Origin: a virus
Direction: 5' to 3' (one strand)
Length of the DNA: 58,579 nucleotides
Virus record (IMG/VR): IMGVR_UViG_3300045988_039851
Shown here piece by piece: positions 37,196-51,768 of the stretch; position 1 is the stretch's first letter; every line of letters starts with the position of its first letter. The notes beneath the pieces are model-generated. The model made no database searches. It worked only from the letters and a program-made list of their open reading frames with translations, and had not been told where the DNA came from. The translations under genes were made by a program, and so were the position numbers.

Positions 37196-37828
37196 TTACT
37201 CTCCTTTGTTATCCGGCTGAACCGGGATGTTGTAATACTCACGAATGGTCTTGTCTACGGCAGCGAGGTCGTTCTCGATTAGCGCATCGTTAAACATCCC
37301 AAGAGGGGTTTTCACGGTGTCCATCCCATCATTGCGAGTGCTGAACAGGTATCGCCCATCCTGTACAACGGTTTTCAGGACGATGGTGAAGTACCCCTCC
37401 ACGCAGACCTTCTCGTCCAGCAGCTTGCCGATGGTCTTGAACTTCTCGCCACCGTCTCCGTCACGCTCGCTGTGTCCGAAAAAGTAGACCACCACATCGT
37501 CCGGCAGCTCCTTTGCCCGCATCAGCAGAGCGTTGAAGTTGGCTGCCATGTCGGTGAACTTCTGGTATCCGGCGACCTTTGCGTTCCGCATGAACTCGCC
37601 GGTCATAAGATAGGTGACATCGTCAATGACGATTGACTTACGCTTGGTGCTGTGGATTGCAGCGTCAATCTTGCCGTAGTCGTTGGTGATATAAGTTTTC
37701 ATGTTGCTGCGGAACGGCAGCGGCTTTCCAAGCACGTTGATAATCGCAACCTGTTCCGGGTCAAAGTTCCGAAGCGAAGCGGATTTACCGCTGCCGGAGT
37801 GACCGTAGACCATTACTAATACTGCCAT
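37196..37828 (-). CDS. AAA_24 / Sak4-like recombination ATPase
   Basis: Walker A VYGHSGSGKSAS at the N-terminus; Walker B-like SIVIDDVTY. Confidence 0.7.
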   Translation of the reverse strand: MAVLVMVYGHSGSGKSASLRNFDPEQVAIINVLGKPLPFRSNMKTYITNDYGKIDAAIHSTKRKSIVIDDVTYLMTGEFMRNAKVAGYQKFTDMAANFNALLMRAKELPDDVVVYFFGHSERDGDGGEKFKTIGKLLDEKVCVEGYFTIVLKTVVQDGRYLFSTRNDGMDTVKTPLGMFNDALIENDLAAVDKTIREYYNIPVQPDNKGE

Positions 37829-37897
37829 TTTTCTTTCCTTTCTTCGGCTTCATTAGGCTTCATTGTTCTTACTTTGGCTTAATATGGCTGTGCAAAA

Positions 37898-42952: not shown

Positions 42953-43546
42953 ATGGATGATTATAGGATACGAGTGGCAAAAGCGTTAGAGATGGCAAGA
43001 GCAGAATCCGGACTTAGCCAACAGAAGCTTGCAGACAAAATGGGTATAGGCCGAACATCCATTTTTCGTTACGAGCAAGGGACAATGACCCCAGATGCTC
43101 CTACTATCATAAAGTGGTTCGTGTGCTGCGGTGTTGCGGCCAAACCGTACATAGACACCTGTTTGCATCCCGGATTATTGGAAAGTCTGGCTGGCGATGC
43201 CAGCACCGAGAGAAAGAGAGATACGCTGATAGAGCATATCAAAGAAGCCCATCCGCAAGAAATCGACCTGCTGTGCTATCTGATCTACGGCAATCACGGC
43301 TCAGATTACCTTGCCGTTCTGTGCGAAATGGTAGCCAACCTTCACACGACTTTGCGTGATCGTGTGTCCGTCTGCCGCACCGTCACAGGACATTATGAGA
43401 TGGCACAGGCCACCAAAACCGACCCAGACCCAGACGGAACACAGCCTAATATGCAGATTTTATATCAGGCACAGGACTGTGGGGAAGCTTCGGCCATGAA
43501 GCGAAACGATTCTTATACCATCAACGAAGAAAACATTTTGCGCTGA
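42953..43546 (+). CDS. XRE-family HTH regulator with a C-terminal domain
   Basis: ATG at 42953 follows AGAGGGG. Motif SGLSQQKLADKMGIGRTSIFRYEQG. Confidence 0.7.
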   Translation: MDDYRIRVAKALEMARAESGLSQQKLADKMGIGRTSIFRYEQGTMTPDAPTIIKWFVCCGVAAKPYIDTCLHPGLLESLAGDASTERKRDTLIEHIKEAHPQEIDLLCYLIYGNHGSDYLAVLCEMVANLHTTLRDRVSVCRTVTGHYEMAQATKTDPDPDGTQPNMQILYQAQDCGEASAMKRNDSYTINEENILR

Positions 43547-43587
43547 TTGTCGAATTATCGAAGTTTTTACGGTATACAGGGGGACGT

Positions 43588-43605
43588 GTTCCACTTTTTG
43601 TACAC
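43588..43605 (-). repeat. Inverted copy of the Rep iteron
   Basis: The reverse complement reads GTGTACAAAAAGTGGAAC. Confidence 0.75.
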
Positions 43606-43759
43606 AATAGACCTGTTATAAATATAGTTTTGGGTTGTCATTTTGTCCCCCATAGAATCGTAAATAGTGGATTTTTGCGGATGTAATTAACGAACTCGCG
43701 TGAAATTTTCGTTCACCAAAGGGTGACTTGTCAATTCGTCCCCTATTGGTGTGATTGCA

Positions 43760-43776
43760 CTCCATTTTCTGTACAC
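43760..43776 (-). repeat. Inverted copy of the Rep iteron (degenerate)
   Basis: The reverse complement reads GTGTACAGAAAATGGAG. Confidence 0.65.
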
Positions 43777-43913
43777 GATAGAACCGTCAGGTAGGTTATA
43801 GGGCTTGATGGACGTTTCTTATTCAGCAAAAGAAGTTGTCGTTTTCCACAATCTGCCCGTTGAAGAAAAGAAATTGTTGAAAATGTATCGTCGTCACTAT
43901 TTGATGATGATTA

Positions 43914-43948
43914 TTTATCTCTTGTTTATCTCTTGTTTATATATATAG
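43914..43948. repeat. AT-rich tandem TTTATCTCTTG x2 plus TATATATA (candidate unwinding element)
   Basis: Read directly, immediately upstream of the iterons. A DnaA-box-like TTTTCCACA lies at 43842-50. Confidence 0.55.
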
Positions 43949-43955
43949 TAAGAAC

Positions 43956-44058
43956 GTGTACAAAAAGTGGAGCATTGTGTACATAAAGTGGAGGAACGTG
44001 TACAAGAAGTGGAGGGTATCGTGTACAAAAAGTGGAGCATCGTGTACAGAATGTGGAA
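43956..44058 (+). repeat. Five direct iterons GTGTACAnnAnGTGGAG (plasmid-type origin)
   Basis: Iterons start at 43956, 43977, 43998, 44021 and 44042 (spacings 21, 21, 23, 21). Confidence 0.85.
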
Positions 44059-44080
44059 GTCGATTGTTAAAAAAATAATT

Positions 44081-44122
44081 GTGTACAGAATCATTGACGT
44101 GTACACGATACAGTGGTATAAT
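44081..44122 (+). promoter_or_regulatory. rep promoter region with two partial iterons and a TATAAT
   Basis: GTGTAC at 44081 and 44099; TATAAT at 44117-22, 25 nt upstream of the rep ATG. Confidence 0.55.
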
Positions 44123-44147
44123 AGGGTAGAAGAAATGAGGTGATGCA

Positions 44148-45245
44148 ATGCCAGAATTGACAGGAAACAATCTTGTCGAAAAGAGCAAGGCATTGGTTTG
44201 GGCGAAGTTTACGGACTACACAGCAGGCGAGCTTCGGCTGCTTGAGGTCTATCTGAGCCGTATCAATCCGAGAGACCCAGAAAGCTCTAACGTGTCGTTT
44301 ACGCTGGCTGAATATTGCAAGCTGCTGGATTTGAAGCTCAATTCAAAGAACTTGAAGTCGCAAGTTAAGCACTTTTTGGGCAACGTGGTTTCAGTACCAC
44401 TGAATACAGATGGAACGGAATATGTGATGTATCCACTGTTCACAAAGGCAGAGGTTAAGTTCAATCGGGAATCCTTGTCCTATGATGTTTCAATTAACTG
44501 CAATCCTGACTTACGGCCTGTGTTCTTCGATATTGCAAGAAGCGGCTACGTCAAATATCGCCTGCGCTATACGATTGGGATGAAACAGCAAGCATCTATT
44601 CTGATGTACAGCATGATTCGAGATTGGATGAATCGCTCTCTAACATCGAACAAGATTGGTTTGAAGCAGCTGCGTGACCACTTGGGGGCAAACGATGCAA
44701 GTTATGACGATTTCCGGGCTTTGCGCCGCAGAGTTCTTGAACCAGCAGTGGAAGAGATCAGCAATGTTTCAGACATTGTCGTTGACTTTGAAAAGATTTG
44801 CACAGGGCGAAAGGTAGTAGCAGTTGAGTTTCGATTCGGGTACAAATCCAAGCAGCCCGTCATAGATGCCGATTCTAGCGAGGTTGATTGTGAGACGGCT
44901 AATTCCAAGCCGGAAATCAAAAAAGCCGCCAGAAAACCCTGCACAAGCGGATATGAGGATTTCGACTGGTCTGTGTGTGACGAGCTAGAAAAGCAAGACT
45001 GCATTGACGTGGCGAAGGTAGTTGAGAAGTGGATGAAGAAAGAGCATCCTGAAATCAAGCTGCCGAGACGCAGAGAAGCGGTTTATGAGACGGTGAAAGC
45101 CGCATACAATGACATCTTGTCTTTGGACAGGTCTCCGTTCCCTGACAGACCCGTTGGCTATCTGATTAGAAGCGTGGACAAGGCAGGTATCGTAGACAGG
45201 TATATGCCAGCGTTCTATTCCATTGAAGCACTTAGCAGCAAATAA
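44148..45245 (+). CDS. repB: Plasmid replication initiator (Rep_3/RepB-like)
   Basis: 365 aa with N-terminus NNLVEKSKALVWAKFTDYTAGELRLLEVYLSRINPRDP. It immediately follows its iterons. Confidence 0.75.
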   Translation: MPELTGNNLVEKSKALVWAKFTDYTAGELRLLEVYLSRINPRDPESSNVSFTLAEYCKLLDLKLNSKNLKSQVKHFLGNVVSVPLNTDGTEYVMYPLFTKAEVKFNRESLSYDVSINCNPDLRPVFFDIARSGYVKYRLRYTIGMKQQASILMYSMIRDWMNRSLTSNKIGLKQLRDHLGANDASYDDFRALRRRVLEPAVEEISNVSDIVVDFEKICTGRKVVAVEFRFGYKSKQPVIDADSSEVDCETANSKPEIKKAARKPCTSGYEDFDWSVCDELEKQDCIDVAKVVEKWMKKEHPEIKLPRRREAVYETVKAAYNDILSLDRSPFPDRPVGYLIRSVDKAGIVDRYMPAFYSIEALSSK

Positions 45246-45260
45246 AGAAAGGATGATAAA

Positions 45261-45512
45261 ATGGCAAAAGTTCAAAGTTCCGTTTTGTACAGAGAAGTGG
45301 CGAAATTGCGAAACGACTTCGATTGTAACAGAGTTGAGTTTTTCACCGTTGGGGACGGAATTGATACGCCAATTCATGTAATGGTCGGTTCTCGCGGGCA
45401 CGGCACTGTAGAACCAGACGAAGCGATTGAGGAAGGAAAGGCGCTAATTGAAGCTGGTAAGGCAGCAAAAAAATTTAAGTACAATGGTTATTTTGTAATG
45501 TGGGGAGAATAA
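45261..45512 (+). CDS. Hypothetical protein
   Basis: 83-aa ORF between rep and parA. Confidence 0.55.
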   Translation: MAKVQSSVLYREVAKLRNDFDCNRVEFFTVGDGIDTPIHVMVGSRGHGTVEPDEAIEEGKALIEAGKAAKKFKYNGYFVMWGE

Positions 45513-45514
45513 AA

Positions 45515-46285
45515 ATGGCAAAAATTATAGCTGTCGCCAACCAGAAAGGCGGCGCAGGAAAGACCACCACAAGCACCTGTCTGGCTGGTGCGTTACAGTT
45601 GCTTGGCAAGAAAGTCCTGCTGGTGGACTGCGATGCCCAGTGCAACGCAACGGATACTTACGGCGCACAGACAGAGGACGTATGTACCCTGTTTGACGTG
45701 ATGACCCGGCAAGGCACGGCCGAAGAAGGAATCCAGCACTGTGAAGCTGGTGACATTCTGCCATCCGACAGCGCATTGAAGGACATTGACGAGCAGCTTG
45801 TCCGGGACATTGGCAAGAACTTCCGGCTGCGAGAAGCCCTTGAAAGCGTATCCGAGCAGTACGATTATATTGTGCTGGACACTCCCCCGCAGCTTGGTCT
45901 TGCGCTTGTGAACGCACTGATCGCCGCCAACAGCATTATCGTTCCCATCACAGCAGACCGATACGCACTGGCTGGTTTGAGCCAGCTTTCGCAGACCATC
46001 GGCGATGTTCGCAGATATTTCAATCCGACTTTGAAGATTGAAGGATTGCTTCTGAACCAGTACAAGAGCCGTGAGAACCTGTCCAAAGAGGTTGTGGAGC
46101 AGCTTCCTGTGATTGCACAGAGTATGGGAACAACCCTGCTGGACGTGAAGATTAGACCGTCTATGGGCGTTCGCAAGGCGCAGGCAGAGCGGCACAGCCT
46201 GTTTAGCGGCGACACGGCAAAGAGTACCAGCGCAGAGGATTTCAAAGAGCTGGCAAAGAAGATTGTGGAAGGAGAAGAAAAATGA
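45515..46285 (+). CDS. parA: ParA/Soj-type partition ATPase
   Basis: MAKIIAVANQKGGAGKTTTS deviant Walker A; ATG follows GGGGAG. Confidence 0.9.
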   Translation: MAKIIAVANQKGGAGKTTTSTCLAGALQLLGKKVLLVDCDAQCNATDTYGAQTEDVCTLFDVMTRQGTAEEGIQHCEAGDILPSDSALKDIDEQLVRDIGKNFRLREALESVSEQYDYIVLDTPPQLGLALVNALIAANSIIVPITADRYALAGLSQLSQTIGDVRRYFNPTLKIEGLLLNQYKSRENLSKEVVEQLPVIAQSMGTTLLDVKIRPSMGVRKAQAERHSLFSGDTAKSTSAEDFKELAKKIVEGEEK

Positions 46286-46713
46286 AATTGATTGACGCAG
46301 AACCGCTTGAAAAAAAATTCAAAGGATGGATAGAACAAATCAAGAAAGAATATCCGTTCGGGAAAATAGAAGATATTGATGGAGTGGAATCGTGCCTTGC
46401 TGAGCTGGAAGATGCGCCAGCTATTAGCTTGGATGAGCTTACAGATAGCGATAGGTGGATCAGTGTTTCAGATAGACTTCCAGAAAGGTGCAAGACCCCA
46501 TGCCCTCGTGGAAACAATCCTGATTTTAGCAATGTAAGCGAAACCGTATGGATTTGCACGCAGGAAGGGTATACGATGGAAGGTAAGTTGGAGGGCAATT
46601 CTTGGTTTGATGATATGGGGCAGTGCCTTTCAGACTATTTTGAAGATATGGCAGGTCATCATGTCACGCATTGGATGCCTCTGCCTAAGCCGCCAAAGGA
46701 GGATGTAGAATGA
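46282..46713 (+). CDS. DUF551-like protein
   Basis: 143 aa with WISVSDRLPE and a C-terminal VTHWMPLPKPPKE. Overlaps parA by 4 nt. Confidence 0.55.
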   Translation: MKLIDAEPLEKKFKGWIEQIKKEYPFGKIEDIDGVESCLAELEDAPAISLDELTDSDRWISVSDRLPERCKTPCPRGNNPDFSNVSETVWICTQEGYTMEGKLEGNSWFDDMGQCLSDYFEDMAGHHVTHWMPLPKPPKEDVE

Positions 46714-47282
46714 AATCAACCAGCAAAAAATCCTCAGGTCTGCTTGGCGGGTTTGATTTTCAGCCTATTTTTTTGGAACCTGTGTTAAGCCGAAGTGAGT
46801 CAAAGGAAGAAGAAGTAAGCCAAGCAAAGCCGAACGAAGCCGAACAAGCACAGATTAAGCCCAGTGAAGCCACAGACAGCCATGCACGGCCTAATGAAGC
46901 ACAGTTAAGCAGTATTAAGCCGAAGCAAGCCAAAGACAGCGAAACACAGCCAAACAATGCCGTAGTAAGCGAAAGTAAGCCAAAAAAGCTGAAACAGGCG
47001 AAGGAAGTTCAACGCCTTATCGAACAAGGCGATGTTCCCGGCGCACTAGCCGAAGCTGGCCTGACAAAGAAAAAAATCCCGATGCCAGAATCGCATCAGG
47101 GCGTTGCAAGCGGAGACGGCAAGCGTTCCAAGCGCATTACCATCCTTATGAGCGAGGAAGAGCGCAAGTATATCAACCGTGAAGCAAGGCGACACGGCAT
47201 GACGATTGGACAGTTCGTGTACGCTCTGGCGGTTGCGGCAGCAGAGGGAAAGATTGAATTGGAGGACTTCTTGGAGGATTGA
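46710..47282 (+). CDS. Ribbon-helix-helix protein (ParG/MobC-like) with six 10-aa repeats
   Basis: C-terminus KRITILMSEEERKYINREARRHGMTIGQFVYALA; repeats S-x-x-K-P-x-E-A-x-x. Confidence 0.65.
   Translation: MKSTSKKSSGLLGGFDFQPIFLEPVLSRSESKEEEVSQAKPNEAEQAQIKPSEATDSHARPNEAQLSSIKPKQAKDSETQPNNAVVSESKPKKLKQAKEVQRLIEQGDVPGALAEAGLTKKKIPMPESHQGVASGDGKRSKRITILMSEEERKYINREARRHGMTIGQFVYALAVAAAEGKIELEDFLED
46818..46997 (+). repeat. Six tandem 30-bp units, each of three 10-bp AGC-phased subunits
   Basis: 14 of 17 consecutive 10-bp windows (46811-46980) end in AGC, and 2 more end in GGC/TGC. Confidence 0.85.
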
Positions 47283-47314
47283 CGATAAAAGTTAAGGTTT
47301 AGAAAGGATTTGCT

Positions 47315-47572
47315 ATGACTTACGGAGAAATGAACAACTATATCACCCATATTAGTGACAATGACTTGGTTGCGTTGTGCAAGAGCGTTTACGAGTTCAA
47401 GAATGGAAACGGAGTGTTGGAGCCCACTTCGACACTCAAGATTTTATCAGAAAATTTACAGTTTCCCGATGTGAGAGCGTTGGAATATGCCATTACGGAA
47501 GAAGCGCATAAACGATACGGTCAAATTGTTTTACTTCTTATGAAAGACGCTCCGGCGCATTATTTGAAATAA
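47315..47572 (+). CDS. Hypothetical protein
   Basis: 85-aa ORF with RBS AGAAAGGA. Confidence 0.55.
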   Translation: MTYGEMNNYITHISDNDLVALCKSVYEFKNGNGVLEPTSTLKILSENLQFPDVRALEYAITEEAHKRYGQIVLLLMKDAPAHYLK

Positions 47573-47612
47573 CAATAAGAGCTGAGATTTCTGAATCTTT
47601 TGGAAGACTGAT

Positions 47613-47768
47613 ATGACGAAACAAGAGCAAGTTGCAAGAATTGCAAAATACTACACAACCTTCCACCTTTTTGGAGATTGGTACCTTGTTCGGCGTTGGG
47701 CTAGACACTGCCATAGTTGGAAGCGGTTCATTCCATTGTATATGCTAATGCACATTAAAGAAGAATAA
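47613..47768 (+). CDS. Small hypothetical protein (51 aa)
   Basis: ATG follows GGAAG; translated by hand (MTKQEQVARIAKYYTTFHLFGDWYL..). Confidence 0.4.
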   Translation: MTKQEQVARIAKYYTTFHLFGDWYLVRRWARHCHSWKRFIPLYMLMHIKEE

Positions 47769-47778
47769 TCTATGTGAG

Positions 47779-48198
47779 ATGAGAAAAATGCGTACATACA
47801 AGCCACGCAAGCACAGAAGCAAAGAGGAACAAGCTAAAATCAACGCAGAGGTAGCAAAACGTAAAGCAAAACTGGCTGAAAAGTACAATACTGACACGCA
47901 GTATTACAAGGGTATTCCTGTTGAGCTGATTGTAAGAGAGGACTACGGTTGCTACAAAGCAAAGCGTTTCAAAATCAATGGGATCAATCAAAACGTGTGG
48001 ATTCCAAACTGCTATCTTGAAGATGACGGAACAATCAAGGCGAATGTGAACATTGATTTTGTATTCCGTAAGTCTGTAAACCAGTTAAACAAAGCTGGAA
48101 TCACGCAAGCGATTATTGGTATCAAACGTAAAATGCCGGAAGCAGATGTGCCGAATCTCAAAAGCGCAATGCAAAAAATCGGAGATACAGGAACTTGA
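47779..48198 (+). CDS. Hypothetical basic protein
   Basis: 139-aa ORF. Confidence 0.55.
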   Translation: MRKMRTYKPRKHRSKEEQAKINAEVAKRKAKLAEKYNTDTQYYKGIPVELIVREDYGCYKAKRFKINGINQNVWIPNCYLEDDGTIKANVNIDFVFRKSVNQLNKAGITQAIIGIKRKMPEADVPNLKSAMQKIGDTGT

Positions 48199-48209
48199 TA
48201 AAGCACAAA

Positions 48210-48240
48210 CCCCTGTGTAGCCGCAATGACCGCACAGGGG
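48210..48240 (+). other. Hairpin CCCCTGTG..CACAGGGG (left arm shared with the 48735 hairpin)
   Basis: 8-bp stem, no U-run, followed by the RBS of the next gene. Confidence 0.5.
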
Positions 48241-48253
48241 AGAAAGGAAACAC

Positions 48254-48724
48254 ATGGGACAAAAAGTGTTAGGGCACTACGAATCACACTGGTATCTCAA
48301 TGGGACAGGCGGTGACATATACGAAGGTAAGATGGTCTTTCGGGATAAAGATTGGCGTATAAGATATATGCCAAACCAATGCGTTGAAACCTATTATTTT
48401 AGATTAAAGAAAATAAAAGATGATTTTAAGAGCAAAGGGCAAAAAGAAGGAAATTATAAAAACATTGCATGGATAAAATTTTCCGAATTGAATTGGTTTG
48501 AACGAAGAAAGCGTCCAGATTGGTTTAAGGTTCAATTTCTTTCAAATGGACTTGATAGTCCAAAAACACAATGGTATACAGTCCACGATTTGTCTGGTAT
48601 CGAAGAAAAGAAGCATTGGGTTGAGGAAAAACGCCAATACACAATGAAAGAACTTTCAGAGAGAATGCCAGCAGAAGATTTTATCGAGTATATGAAAGAT
48701 AGAGGAATAACGACAATCCGATAA
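48254..48724 (+). CDS. Hypothetical protein
   Basis: 156-aa ORF with RBS AGAAAGGAAA. Confidence 0.6.
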   Translation: MGQKVLGHYESHWYLNGTGGDIYEGKMVFRDKDWRIRYMPNQCVETYYFRLKKIKDDFKSKGQKEGNYKNIAWIKFSELNWFERRKRPDWFKVQFLSNGLDSPKTQWYTVHDLSGIEEKKHWVEEKRQYTMKELSERMPAEDFIEYMKDRGITTIR

Positions 48725-51132: not shown

Positions 51133-51651
51133 TTATTCTCCTTTCTTTGCGGTGGCAGCGGGCTTCGAAAAGCTCTTCTGCCACTTTTCCAGTTCATCCA
51201 GCCGGTGGACGAGGGCGTTGTACTGCTCAATAGGCACATACTGCTGTGTCGGTGTAGCGGTCTGCTGTGCCTGTTGTGCTTGCATCTGCCTCCACGCTTC
51301 CGGGCTGTAAAACTCTAACACGTCAGATTCACAAGTGTTTGGGTTCAGACGTTTGCAGTAGATGACACCACTACGCAAATCCGGGCAATACGTCCATCTT
51401 CCATACAGATCAGATGGAATTGCCAAAAACTCCTCTCTGCTGGAAACAGGTCTGCCAAGCAACCAACCGCCGTCCTGTGCCGACTGCTGAACAGGCTGCT
51501 GCCCATTCATCGGCTGCGGACGCTGCGGTTGTGCCTGTTGCATCTGCGTGTTGGGCAGGGGAGTGGCAAGCCCAACTGTGCCCATGCCACCGTAAGGATT
51601 GACAGGCTGCTGTGGAACGTAGGGCGCTCCGGGTGCCGGATAATAGCTCAT
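51133..51651 (-). CDS. Cargo-island protein 1: Pro/Gln-rich N-terminus, Cys-containing C-terminal domain
   Basis: ATG at 51651 follows AAGGAGGG. Sequence begins MSYYPAPGAPYVPQQPVNPYGG. Confidence 0.65.
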   Translation of the reverse strand: MSYYPAPGAPYVPQQPVNPYGGMGTVGLATPLPNTQMQQAQPQRPQPMNGQQPVQQSAQDGGWLLGRPVSSREEFLAIPSDLYGRWTYCPDLRSGVIYCKRLNPNTCESDVLEFYSPEAWRQMQAQQAQQTATPTQQYVPIEQYNALVHRLDELEKWQKSFSKPAATAKKGE

Positions 51652-51724
51652 AAAACATCCCTCCTTGTGCATCCAGTGTACTGCATCGGCAAAAAGCAAG
51701 AGACAACAAAGGCACAACGAAGGA

Positions 51725-51768
51725 CAAAAAAGAAAAGCGCCCACACGGAAAAATCCGCATGAGCGCTT
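51725..51768 (-). terminator. Leader terminator/attenuator upstream of the cargo island
   Basis: Minus strand: AAGCGC..GCGCTT stem with an inner GCGG/CCGT helix, then TTTTCTTTTTT. It ends about 75 nt before the ATG at 51651. Confidence 0.55.

What the first reader, a model, noticed from the sequence alone, without database searches (positions are those of the whole stretch)
46787..46997. AGC/AAGCC motif phased every 10 bp, in all three codon phases, inside the RHH gene next to parA
From 46811 to 46980, 14 of 17 consecutive 10-bp windows end in AGC, mostly as AAGCC. Two more end in GGC/TGC and one is slipped by 1 nt. The region forms six 30-bp units encoding a 10-aa repeat (S-x-x-K-P-x-E-A-x-x). 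The DNA motif falls in codon phase 1 (AGC = Ser), phase 2 (aAG-Cc = Lys-Pro) and phase 3 (gaA-GCc = Glu-Ala). The peptide repeat does not require a 10-bp sub-periodicity. A motif repeated once per helical turn places all copies on one DNA face. That is how ParR/ParG/omega-type RHH proteins decorate their centromeres. I found no other obvious centromere near parA, so the partition site may be embedded in the coding sequence of its own binding protein.
Basis: partly seen in the sequence, partly recalled or inferred. Interest (0 to 1): 0.75.

Follow-up and report, generated by a model that had tools for sequence, protein, structure and literature searches.

The report
Centromere-like repeats inside partition-protein gene
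A gut phage that probably persists as a plasmid carries about twenty 10-bp DNA repeats, most likely its partition site, inside the gene for the DNA-binding partition protein itself, so the same DNA is both a probable binding array and, read in all three frames, the protein's floppy linker.

Summary
AGC, mostly within AAGCC, recurs at exactly 10-bp spacing from 46788 to 46978, inside a 190-aa gene (46710-47282). That gene encodes a conserved N-terminal peptide, a disordered linker and a C-terminal ribbon-helix-helix (RHH) domain. It belongs to a Rep3/iteron-ParA module of a ~57-kb tailed phage.

The phasing exceeds what the protein needs (P=1e-4 under synonymous resampling). Among 109 relatives, diversity in the array follows the decamer phase rather than codon position. 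Two-fold synonymous sites are 3.4 times less variable than in the RHH domain.

Homologues at 30-45% identity lose the peptide repeat but keep short-period DNA repeats in the same linker. Ten fetched loci have a 10-bp period and one lineage a 9-bp period, with lineage-specific motifs in all three codon phases. In most of them the gene directly follows parA.

Best reading: a type Ib-like ParA/RHH partition system whose tandem-repeat centromere lies inside the coding sequence of its own binding protein. Binding and partition function remain untested. Motif/beta-strand covariation is only suggestive. A second, intergenic mini-array (37831-37890) complicates the picture.

Verdict: a new variant of a known kind.

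The parts
46781..46990 (+). Tandem array of about 21 direct 10-bp units, consensus C-R-A-A-N-N-A-A-G-C (core [AC]AGCC followed by RAA). It is proposed as the partition site and/or operator. It is translated in all three codon phases as linker residues ~25-94.
   Evidence: establish the phasing and its significance. Searches show a 10-periodic constraint among 109 relatives.
46710..47282 (+). parB-like gene for the centromere-binding protein (190 aa). An AAGGAGG Shine-Dalgarno sequence lies 8 nt upstream, and its ATG overlaps the upstream stop (ATGA).
   Evidence: Pfam NikA-like RHH, 25.4 bits, below the 27-bit cut-off. Searches found 819 and 514 relatives. Searches show five distant homologues starting within 4 nt of the parA stop or overlapping it.
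46710..46775 (+). Conserved N-terminal peptide MKSTSKKSSGLLGGFDFQPIFL, the inferred ParA-contact and ATPase-stimulating tail.
   Evidence: M1, K2, S5 and G10 are invariant across eight lineages at 32-40% identity to the reference. The peptide is 18/20 identical in the ParB-swapped L083 phage, whose ParA is 96% identical. The role is inferred from ParG and ParB tails (PMC5393062).
47121..47270 (+). C-terminal ribbon-helix-helix DNA-binding domain, with beta strand K-R-I-T-I-L-M.
   Evidence: Pfam hit over residues 138-174. An AF2 model of homologue P0135 shows an extended segment plus two confident helices. The top Foldseek PDB hits are all RHH proteins: AtaR, CopG, NikA, Arc. Diversity here is purely 3-periodic, p=5e-29.
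45515..46285 (+). parA: a small Walker-type ATPase (256 aa) with the deviant Walker A motif KGGAGKT and no N-terminal HTH.
   Evidence: AAA_31 6e-54, CbiA, ParA, MipZ; sequence.
46282..46713 (+). DUF551 gene inserted between parA and parB. It is variable cargo, not part of the core system.
   Evidence: PF04448. It is replaced by an unrelated 111-aa gene in MT836154 and is absent in L083 and L164-L171.
44148..45245 (+). Rep3-family replication initiator, the plasmid replication partner of the par module.
   Evidence: Rep3_N 1.7e-17, Rep3_C 1.2e-15.
43934..44110 (.). Five to six 21-bp iterons (CGTGTACAAAAAGTGGAGCAT) upstream of rep, with inverted copies at 43587-43608 and 43760-43780. This is the presumed Rep-binding origin/operator, and its motif differs from the array's.
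37831..37890 (-). Second, intergenic mini-array of the same phased motif: CAGCC, AAGCC, AAGAA, AAGCC, AAGCC, AAGGA at 10-bp steps. It lies in the 69-bp gap upstream of a P-loop gene (37196-37828). It is a possible secondary binding site or operator; whether it belongs to the system is uncertain.
   Evidence: It is the only other place in the window, on either strand, with >=3 of 6 phased [AC]AGCC, against 0.02 expected. It is conserved in relatives but is also retained in phages with a different ParB type.

Best explanation
The window is a tailed phage carrying a plasmid-type maintenance module: iterons, Rep3, ParA and an RHH partner protein. The 190-aa protein is the centromere-binding partner of ParA, a type Ib-like 'ParB'. 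It has an N-terminal peptide that contacts and stimulates ParA, a disordered linker, and a C-terminal RHH dimerisation and DNA-binding domain.

The roughly 200-bp stretch of its own gene that encodes the linker (46781-46990) is about 20 head-to-tail 10-bp binding units ([AC]AGCC-RAA). Proposed mechanism (inferred): RHH dimers load cooperatively on successive units, one per 10 bp, and form a filament that winds about once around the DNA. This complex displays dozens of N-terminal tails to nucleoid-bound ParA, which segregates prophage-plasmid copies at division.

Because 10 is not a multiple of 3, each unit is read in a different frame: AGC gives Ser, aAG-CCn gives Lys-Pro, and gaA-GCc gives Glu-Ala. 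The 10-aa peptide repeat is therefore a tolerated by-product in a region where the protein only needs to be flexible. A complex assembled inside the transcribed operon could also throttle parB expression, but this is pure inference.

Shown: the periodicity, DNA-level constraint, conservation of a short-period array at the same place in distant homologues, ParA linkage and the RHH fold. Inferred: that this protein binds the array, and that the array is the partition site.
For: 1. Codon choice. In-phase AGC is far above what the amino-acid sequence demands (15 of 20 against a mean of 7.9; P=1e-4).

2. Constraint pattern. Among 109 distinct relatives, array diversity depends on decamer phase (Kruskal p=9e-4). 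The base right after AAGCC is hot in all three codon positions (MWU p=3e-5). Codon position does not matter significantly (p=0.058). The RHH domain of the same gene is purely 3-periodic (p=5e-29). Two-fold synonymous diversity is 0.050 in the array, 0.173 in the RHH domain (p=5e-5) and 0.141 in parA. First- and second-position diversity is higher than in the RHH domain.

3. Distant homologues. Homologues at 30-45% identity have unrelated linker peptides but the same feature. Period-10 information content against the rest of each locus gives z = 10.1 (L163), 6.1 (L164), 7.0 (L165), 5.0 (L166), 10.4 (L167), 7.7 (L168), 8.6 (L169), 6.9 (L170) and 7.9 (L171). L083 has period 9 (z 6.8). Motifs differ by lineage (AGTCAG, TACAGCG, CAGAAT) and, in the clearest 10-bp lineages, sit in all three codon phases.

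4. Module swap. The L083 phage has a 96%-identical ParA and an 18/20-identical N-terminal peptide, but its ParB is only 43% identical, with a different beta strand (RVSVPM) and a different array. The array and the RHH domain therefore travel together.

5. Suggestive covariation. The two RVSV lineages (L083, L164) share CAGAAT, although L164's RHH core is closer to other lineages.

6. Genetic context. In L164, L166, L167, L168 and L171 the gene starts within 4 nt of the parA stop or overlaps it. No other tandem array lies near parA apart from the Rep iterons.

7. Precedent. RHH partition proteins bind uninterrupted short direct repeats; pCXC100 has nine 9-bp repeats, one dimer each (PMC3074162).

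8. A related case. The same motif forms a phased mini-array inside an unrelated gene on the opposite strand in L167 and L168, again in three codon phases.
Against: There is no binding, footprint or stability data, so who binds the array and what it does are both inferred.

Type Ib centromeres normally lie upstream of parA and double as the operator (PMC3074162). Nothing of the kind is found there, so either regulation differs or the true centromere was missed.

The covariation between beta strand and motif is weak for the window itself. Its 6-mer spectrum is no closer to the other RITI lineages (0.11-0.18) than to the RVSV lineages (0.15-0.17). Only the AGC core and 4-5 CAGC[CG] units are shared.

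The intergenic AAGCC mini-array at 37.8 kb persists in all four examined phages whose ParB is of the RVSV/CAGAAT type. Two of them have no RITILM-type RHH within 10 kb of parB. At least that site is therefore not tightly coupled to this protein.

Synonymous diversity is lowered at almost every decamer phase, not only in the AAGCC core, which a simple 5-bp contact model does not predict.

The L166, L169 and L170 lineages show mainly 20-30-bp periods with no clear motif.
Confidence: 0.6

Rival explanations
1. The array is a functional DNA element under selection, but it is not the centromere, or it is not bound by its own product. One option is an autoregulatory operator or transcriptional roadblock only. 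Another is a site for a different factor of the phage, such as the Bro-N-RHH fusion that many relatives encode with the identical KRSKRITILMS strand, with the real partition site elsewhere.
For: The DNA-level constraint says nothing about the binder or the function. A second phased AAGCC cluster sits in a promoter-proximal intergenic gap, as an operator would. It persists in phages whose ParB has another beta strand. Many relatives carry a second RHH protein with the same beta strand. Omega-type RHH proteins are global regulators as well as partition proteins (PMC9499535 abstract).
Against: The window encodes only one RHH of this type. The array and the RHH domain are swapped together while ParA and the N-terminal peptide are kept. 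About 20 contiguous units is centromere-sized rather than operator-sized. No alternative array exists near parA. In type Ib systems operator and centromere are usually the same site, so the two readings overlap more than they exclude each other.
Confidence: 0.24
2. The repeat is only the evolutionary scar of replication slippage in a low-complexity, disordered linker. A 10-bp unit expanded in blocks of three, the DNA has no function, and the peptide is a spacer.
For: The linker is predicted to be disordered and tolerates 10- and 20-aa deletions (180- and 170-aa variants). Linker length differs between lineages (131-197 aa). Repeats are imperfect (TRF 67% matches).
Against: Neutral decay cannot explain synonymous sites 3.4 times less variable than in the RHH domain, nor diversity that follows decamer phase instead of codon position. 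It also cannot explain codon choice at P=1e-4. Frame-breaking 10-bp periods recur in nine further fetched loci with four different motifs. The length is strikingly stable, with 190 aa in 202 of the RITILM-type parB ORFs extracted.
Confidence: 0.1
3. The array is a contingency locus. Gain or loss of single 10-bp units shifts the frame and switches the partition protein on and off.
For: Tandem repeats with a unit not divisible by 3, located inside a gene, are the classic architecture of phase-variable genes (general knowledge).
Against: All six of the first 162 loci in which no intact gene had been detected aligned to the reference gene without gaps, so none carries a frameshift. The only length variants differ by 30 or 60 bp. 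The units are too degenerate for efficient slippage.
Confidence: 0.02
4. The constraint comes from an RNA structure or from an overlapping gene in another frame or on the other strand.
For: All frames are open through the array, for example a 65-aa antisense ORF at 46760-46957.
Against: The RNA folds no better than shuffled sequence (z = +0.82) and there is no Rfam match. An overlapping coding frame would impose 3-periodic constraint, but the observed constraint is 10-periodic. Open frames are an automatic consequence of a stop-free repeat.
Confidence: 0.02

Closest known systems
pCXC100 ParA/ParB (type Ib; Leifsonia xyli), PMC3074162
   Same: A small Walker ParA works with a ParB that has a flexible N-terminal domain and a C-terminal RHH. 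The centromere is a run of uninterrupted, non-palindromic short direct repeats (nine of 9 bp), each bound by one RHH dimer cooperatively. The 9-bp period matches the L083 sister lineage found here.
   Different: The pCXC100 centromere is intergenic and upstream of the operon. Here the array is about twice as long, has a 10-bp period and lies inside the ParB coding sequence. There is no detectable sequence similarity.
TP228 ParF/ParG-parH and pSM19035 delta/omega-parS (type Ib, RHH)
   Same: An RHH centromere-binding protein with a disordered N-terminal tail stimulates the ParA-type ATPase (ParG residues 15-23, Gly16/Arg19; PMC5393062). The centromeres are arrays of degenerate short boxes (parH is ~100 bp of tetramer boxes, PMC3130281) or 7-bp heptads (my own knowledge).
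   Different: Those sites are upstream and intergenic and also act as promoter operators. Their tails are 20-32 residues long, against a ~135-residue tail and linker here. Their unit lengths are 7-8 bp.
Type II ParR-parC (R1, pSK41, pB171)
   Same: RHH dimers coat tandem 10-11-bp direct repeats (R1 has two sets of five, PMC2241845). They form a curved or solenoidal segrosome. The one-dimer-per-10-bp geometry in pSK41 is from my own knowledge.
   Different: The partner there is an actin-like ParM, not a Walker ParA. ParR contacts its partner through its C-terminus. parC is intergenic and upstream.
parS inside the gene of its own binding protein: SCP2 ParT (PMC12260392) and B. subtilis spo0J (my own knowledge)
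   Same: The partition site lies within the coding sequence of the protein that binds it.
   Different: Those are single 16-18-bp palindromes bound by HTH-type ParB proteins and fit within a few codons. They are not a 200-bp tandem array that dictates about 70 residues of the protein in three frames.
Archaeal SegB (RHH) sites
   Same: An RHH partition protein whose sites are mostly intragenic, including within segAB (bioRxiv 10.1101/2025.02.07.637068).
   Different: Those are dispersed single palindromic 13-bp sites on a chromosome, not a tandem array in the protein's own linker.

Membership tests
Type Ib ParA/RHH-ParB partition system | Small Walker-type ParA with a deviant Walker A motif and no N-terminal HTH domain | tested here: met
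   The protein is 256 aa with KGGAGKT at residues 11-17. Pfam gives AAA_31 6e-54 plus CbiA, ParA and MipZ, and no HTH hit.
Type Ib ParA/RHH-ParB partition system | [quoted passage not shown] | tested here: met
   Pfam NikA-like RHH E=1.5e-5, which at 25.4 bits is below the 27-bit cut-off. An AF2 model of homologue P0135 shows residues 1-100 at low confidence and without secondary structure, then two helices at pLDDT ~90. All top Foldseek hits are RHH proteins with target-normalised TM-score up to 0.84 but weak E-values. No PDB match by sequence.
Type Ib ParA/RHH-ParB partition system | Partner gene immediately downstream of parA in one operon | tested here: met
   In L164, L166, L167, L168 and L171 the gene starts within 4 nt of the parA stop or overlaps it, and L083 is the same. 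In the window and L163 a variable gene is inserted between them, still with overlapping stop and start.
Type Ib ParA/RHH-ParB partition system | Cis-acting centromere made of short repeats that the partner protein binds | not testable with these tools
   A suitable array exists and is under DNA-level constraint. Binding and cis function need experiments.
Type Ib ParA/RHH-ParB partition system | Centromere/operator located upstream of parA | tested here: not met
   Upstream of parA there are only rep, an 83-aa ORF and the 21-bp Rep iterons. No phased [AC]AGCC array occurs there.
Type Ib ParA/RHH-ParB partition system | N-terminal tail stimulates the ParA ATPase | not testable with these tools
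   A conserved peptide is present (M1, K2, S5, G10 invariant). It is retained when the rest of ParB is swapped beside a 96%-identical ParA. Activity is untested.
NikA/MobC-type relaxosome accessory protein | Pfam NikA-like domain above threshold, and association with a relaxase and oriT | tested here: not met
   The score of 25.4 is below the gathering cut-off of 27. Neighbours in every locus are rep, parA and phage genes, with no relaxase called. The rest of the window was not exhaustively screened.
HTH ParB/Spo0J family with parS inside parB | ParB/Sulfiredoxin N-domain and HTH DNA-binding domain | tested here: not met
   No such Pfam hit; the fold is RHH.
Phase-variable contingency locus | Population variation in repeat number that shifts the reading frame | tested here: not met
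   All six of the first 162 loci in which no intact gene had been detected aligned to the reference gene without gaps. Length variants differ only by 30 or 60 bp.
Phage-plasmid | Phage structural and packaging genes together with plasmid replication and partition genes on one element | tested here: met
   Large terminase, portal, major head protein, tape measure and a DnaB-like helicase, plus Rep3, iterons and ParA. Relatives are 55-60-kb viral contigs. Absence of an integrase was not systematically checked, and extrachromosomal maintenance is inferred.

The most novel reading that the evidence does not exclude
The array plus the RHH domain form a self-contained, portable specificity cassette. 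The centromere is written into the disordered linker of the protein that binds it, so site and reader cannot be separated by recombination, and one exchange creates a new incompatibility type while ParA and the ParA-contact peptide stay the same. In this reading the amino-acid sequence of about 70 residues is dictated by a DNA-binding code read in three frames. Assembly of the partition complex on the gene would also gate its own transcription. The arrangement would be a general but overlooked solution for 'centromere-less' ParA/RHH loci in phages and plasmids of gut Bacillota.
Probability: 0.4. Interest if true: 0.85.

Novelty: new variant of a known kind. Interest (0 to 1): 0.72.

Why it matters
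Many small ParA/RHH loci in phages, plasmids and integrative elements have no recognisable centromere. If the site is routinely hidden in the partner's own linker-coding DNA, it can be found by a simple scan for non-3n periodicity in that gene.

It would also be a clean natural case of dual coding, where a protein-binding array rather than protein function sets the sequence of a long disordered segment. That is a caution for interpreting peptide repeats and dN/dS in such regions.

The tight linkage of site and reader explains how a very abundant group of human-gut phages could diversify partition specificity by swapping modules. More than 500 related viral contigs were found. The family offers ready-made orthogonal partition cassettes for vectors in hard-to-engineer gut anaerobes.

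The hypothesis is directly testable with one protein, one 210-bp fragment and a recoded allele.

Tried and rejected
- **RNA element.** The array RNA is not structured (z +0.82) and there is no Rfam hit in 43000-48500.
- **Overlapping or antisense ORF.** Rejected because the constraint is 10-periodic, not 3-periodic.
- **Phase variation.** No frameshift variants were found.
- **Misplaced start codon, leaving the array intergenic.** Rejected. A strong Shine-Dalgarno sequence and an ATGA overlap sit at 46710. The conserved N-terminal peptide is in frame with the RHH domain in every lineage.
- **Sequence search for solved relatives.** Nothing useful; the best RHH hit has E=1.5.
- **Plasmid database (PLSDB).** No DNA match.
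- **Host assignment.** The RHH protein gave no hit in GTDB species genomes. TerL gave only 62-67% relatives in a Bacillota MAG and a 'Bacteroidales' MAG. The host remains unresolved.
- **Covariation test on the second (intergenic) array.** I fetched the ParB-swapped phages expecting their motif there. The AAGCC mini-array was unchanged, so the test did not support coupling. Two of the four still encode a truncated RITILM RHH, two do not.
- **Quantitative motif similarity against beta-strand type.** It clearly supports only the RVSV pair and does not support the window against the other RITI lineages.
- **Second in-gene array in the window.** L167 and L168 carry one in a 171-174-aa gene, but the window's homologue (51133-51672) has none.
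- **A 10-11-bp AACGAANGAC repeat.** Conserved upstream of that gene in L163, L167 and L168; it is barely present in the window and not significant.
- **Literature.** I found no description of a tandem RHH centromere inside its own coding sequence in the held library. The library is incomplete.
Full report
**1. What is at the coordinates**

The region 46710-47282 (+) is a 190-aa ORF. It has a strong Shine-Dalgarno sequence (AAGGAGG), and its ATG overlaps the stop of the upstream gene.

Fourteen of 17 rows end in AGC, two end in GGC/TGC, and one is slipped by a base. The phased run begins earlier than stated. AGC occupies position 8 mod 10 in 15 of the 20 slots from 46788 to 46978. All nine AAGCC copies share one decamer phase while falling in codon phases 0, 1 and 2. 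The consensus unit over the family is C-R-A-A-N-N-A-A-G-C.

**2. Is it more than chance, and more than the peptide?**

- Elsewhere in the 58.6-kb window, no 200-bp stretch has more than 6 in-phase AGC, against 15 here.
- The pattern MAGC-N6-MAGC-N6-MAGC occurs six times, all here, where 0.2 are expected.
- Autocorrelation peaks at lags 10, 20, 30 and 40 (z 6.4-8.5). The RHH-coding part of the same gene and parA show nothing comparable.
- Period-10 information content is 12 sd above the rest of the window.
- Keeping the protein sequence and redrawing synonymous codons from local usage gives a mean of 7.9 in-phase AGC of 20. The observed 15 is reached in 2 of 20,000 draws.

The DNA phasing is therefore not an automatic consequence of the 10-aa peptide period.

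**3. Context**

Upstream lie 21-bp iterons (43934-44110, with inverted copies further upstream). These are followed by a Rep3 initiator (44148-45245), an 83-aa ORF, and a 256-aa Walker ParA with KGGAGKT (45515-46285). Next come a DUF551 gene (46282-46713) and then the gene in question, whose C-terminus gives a sub-threshold NikA-like RHH hit.

The rest of the window encodes a large terminase, portal, major head protein, tape measure and a DnaB-like helicase. The element is therefore a tailed phage with a plasmid maintenance module, which I read as a phage-plasmid.

It is common. There are 819 protein relatives and more than 500 IMG/VR contigs of 55-60 kb, plus two unannotated human-faecal phage records in GenBank. 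PLSDB has no match. The host could not be assigned.

**4. The gene is a ParA partner**

More distant relatives (30-45% identity) all share one architecture:
- an N-terminal peptide MK.TSKK.SGLLG.. with M1, K2, S5 and G10 invariant;
- a non-conserved linker;
- a conserved C-terminal domain.

In five fetched loci (L164, L166, L167, L168, L171) the gene starts within 4 nt of the parA stop or overlaps it. The gene between parA and this gene in the window is variable cargo, and MT836154 has a different gene there.

An AlphaFold model of homologue P0135 gives a low-confidence, structureless first ~100 residues and two confident helices after an extended segment. Its best PDB fold matches are all ribbon-helix-helix proteins: AtaR, CopG, NikA and Arc. 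Their E-values are weak, as expected for a 45-residue domain.

Disordered N-terminal tails of partition proteins are what contact and stimulate ParA (PMC5393062).

**5. The decisive comparisons**

(a) *Within the family.* In 109 distinct sequences of the 190-aa form, nucleotide diversity in the RHH domain is purely 3-periodic (codon positions 0.030, 0.007, 0.204; p=5e-29). In the array, codon position is not significant (0.069, 0.058, 0.104; p=0.058), whereas decamer phase is (p=9e-4). The base immediately after AAGCC is hot whichever codon position it occupies (MWU p=3e-5). Strictly synonymous two-fold sites have pi=0.050 in the array, 0.173 in the RHH domain (p=5e-5) and 0.141 in parA. Four-fold sites have 0.172 against 0.254 (p=0.036). 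The stretch evolves like a DNA element that happens to be translated.

The opposite is found. The peptide is not conserved, yet the linker DNA of the fetched homologues is again short-period repetitive.

| Locus | Period | z against rest of locus | Motif |
|---|---|---|---|
| L163 | 10 | 10.1 | AGTCAG |
| L164 | 10 | 6.1 | GCAGAAT |
| L165 | 10 | 7.0 | ACAGC |
| L166 | 10 | 5.0 | unclear |
| L167 | 10 | 10.4 | TACAGCGGAA |
| L168 | 10 | 7.7 | TACAGCG |
| L169 | 10 | 8.6 | unclear |
| L170 | 10 | 6.9 | unclear |
| L171 | 10 | 7.9 | TACAGCG-type |
| L083 group | 9 | 6.8 | CAGA[AT]T |

In the clearest 10-bp lineages the motif occupies all three codon phases. In L165, L167, L168 and L171 the array is split into two blocks offset by 4-6 bp. 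A frame-breaking period that recurs with different motifs is hard to explain by slippage in a tolerant linker. It is easy to explain if each lineage maintains an array of sites for its own DNA-binding domain.

(c) *Module swap.* The L083 phages have a ParA 96% identical to the window's and an N-terminal ParB peptide identical at 18 of 20 residues. The rest of ParB is 43% identical, with beta strand RVSVPM instead of RITILM, and the array is different. Rep type and ParB type assort independently.

(d) *Covariation.* L164 and L083 share the RVSV strand and the CAGAAT motif, although L164's RHH core outside the strand is closer to other lineages. Their linker 6-mer spectra are the most similar cross-group pair (0.25). 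For the window against the other RITI lineages, only the AGC core and a few CAGC[CG] units are shared, and the 6-mer similarity is not distinctive. I count covariation as suggestive only.

**6. Stability of the array**

The length is 190 aa in the great majority of sequences. Variants of 180 and 170 aa are clean 30- or 60-bp deletions at different places. All six of the first 162 loci in which no intact gene had been detected aligned to the reference gene without gaps, so none is frameshifted. This argues against a phase-variable locus.

**7. Other rivals**

The RNA is not structured and nothing matches Rfam. The open antisense frame is a trivial result of a stop-free repeat, and it could not produce a 10-periodic constraint.

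**8. Complications**

A both-strand scan for phased [AC]AGCC finds one other site in the window (0.02 expected). It lies on the minus strand at 37831-37890 and reads CAGCC, AAGCC, AAGAA, AAGCC, AAGCC, AAGGA at 10-bp steps. It sits in a 69-bp intergenic gap upstream of a P-loop gene.

This site is conserved in most relatives and survives replacement of the downstream gene. That shows the phased motif also exists in non-coding DNA. However, all four L083-type phages keep it. Two of them still carry a truncated RITILM-type RHH ORF just after the new parB, preceded by the last few decamers of the old array. The other two have no such domain within 10 kb. The mini-array therefore does not track the ParB type, and its binder is unknown.

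Two further points count against the simple model. Nothing resembling an operator for this protein lies upstream of parA, where type Ib centromeres normally sit (PMC3074162). And synonymous constraint extends over nine of the ten decamer positions rather than only the AAGCC core.

**9. Mechanism proposed**

RHH dimers load on successive 10-bp direct repeats, as pCXC100 ParB does on nine 9-bp repeats (PMC3074162).

The array period is 10.0 bp, while B-DNA has about 10.5 bp per turn (textbook value). Twenty sites therefore precess by roughly one full turn. The complex should be a shallow solenoid rather than a one-faced row, in line with the curved segrosomes described for ParR-parC (PMC2241845 abstract; geometry from my own knowledge).

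The complex presents many N-terminal tails to ParA on the nucleoid. The peptide repeat (Ser; Lys-Pro; Glu-Ala) is simply the three-frame translation of the site and is tolerated because the linker only has to be flexible. Autoregulation by roadblock is possible but purely inferred.

I put 0.85 on 'DNA-level functional element' and 0.6 on 'cognate partition site of its own product'.

**10. Comparison with what is known**

The parts are known:
- type Ib ParA/RHH systems with tandem short-repeat centromeres (pCXC100, TP228, pSM19035);
- partition sites inside the binding protein's own gene (SCP2 parT, PMC12260392; spo0J, my own knowledge);
- intragenic sites of the archaeal RHH protein SegB.

What I did not find described is a long tandem RHH-type array embedded in, and dictating, the linker of its own binding protein. 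The searched library is incomplete. I therefore class this as a new variant of a known kind, of clear interest to plasmid and phage biologists and directly testable.

Noticed in passing
window 37831-37890 (minus strand): An intergenic mini-array of the same motif at 10-bp steps (CAGCC, AAGCC, AAGAA, AAGCC, AAGCC, AAGGA), just upstream of a P-loop gene (37196-37828). It is the only other phased [AC]AGCC cluster in the window. It is conserved in relatives even where the downstream gene differs, and it is also retained in phages with a different ParB type.
   Followed up: yes
L332 10850-11218 and L333 10850-11218 (L083-type phages): Right after the swapped-in RVSV-type parB and a small zinc-ribbon ORF lies a truncated copy of the window-type gene. 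It consists of the last 4-5 AAGCC decamers (frame broken by a stop) followed by an intact 106-aa ORF encoding the mid-region and the RITILM RHH domain. This looks like the footprint of a cassette replacement.
   Followed up: partly
L168 5598-5647; L167 5346-5375 (gene on the opposite strand): In the TACAGCG lineages, a second 10-bp-phased array of the same motif lies in the low-complexity N-terminal part of an unrelated 171-174-aa phage gene, about 3.2 kb from parB. It has 3-5 units by TRF and is again in three codon phases. In L168 it encodes QPNTAQYSAGQ, the same peptide as in the ParB linker. The window's homologue (51133-51672, minus strand) has no AAGCC array.
   Followed up: partly
loci L006, L021, L026 and many others, downstream of parB (P0137 type): Many relatives encode a ~300-aa protein that fuses a Bro-N-like domain to a C-terminal RHH with the identical strand KRSKRITILMS. 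It would be a second potential reader of the same DNA motif. The window lacks it.
   Followed up: partly
window 46282-46713; L001 4171-4506: The slot between parA and parB holds interchangeable cargo: DUF551 in the window and a 111-aa Cys-rich protein in MT836154. It is empty in distant homologues. The stop/start overlaps are preserved.
   Followed up: partly
window 43587-44110: There are 21-bp iterons (CGTGTACAAAAAGTGGAGCAT, about 5 direct copies) upstream of rep, two inverted copies 170-370 bp further upstream, and an 11-bp TTTATCTCTTG repeat (2.5 copies) at 43914-43940.
   Followed up: no
window 46998-47075 (residues ~97-122); same region in P0126 and P0132: A short conserved segment, KPK.LKQAK.VQ..IEQG....AL.E.G, lies between the array and the RHH domain. 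It is shared by only three lineages and is absent from the others. Its role is unknown; it may serve oligomerisation or be a recombination junction.
   Followed up: no
L166, L169, L170: The 'MAK...' branch of the family (strand RRMCVAM) sits beside a tyrosine integrase and an HTH_36 replication-type gene (L166, L170). In L169 it lies on the same contig as ribosomal protein genes. This suggests integrative or chromosomal elements rather than phage-plasmids. Its linker shows mainly 20-30-bp periods and no clear motif.
   Followed up: no
L163 7470-7502; L167 5522-5556; L168 5804-5838; window ~51700-51730: A 10-11-bp tandem repeat, AACGAANGAC, of about three copies lies in the intergenic region upstream of the 171-aa gene. 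It is conserved across lineages with different ParB types and is nearly absent in the window.
   Followed up: partly
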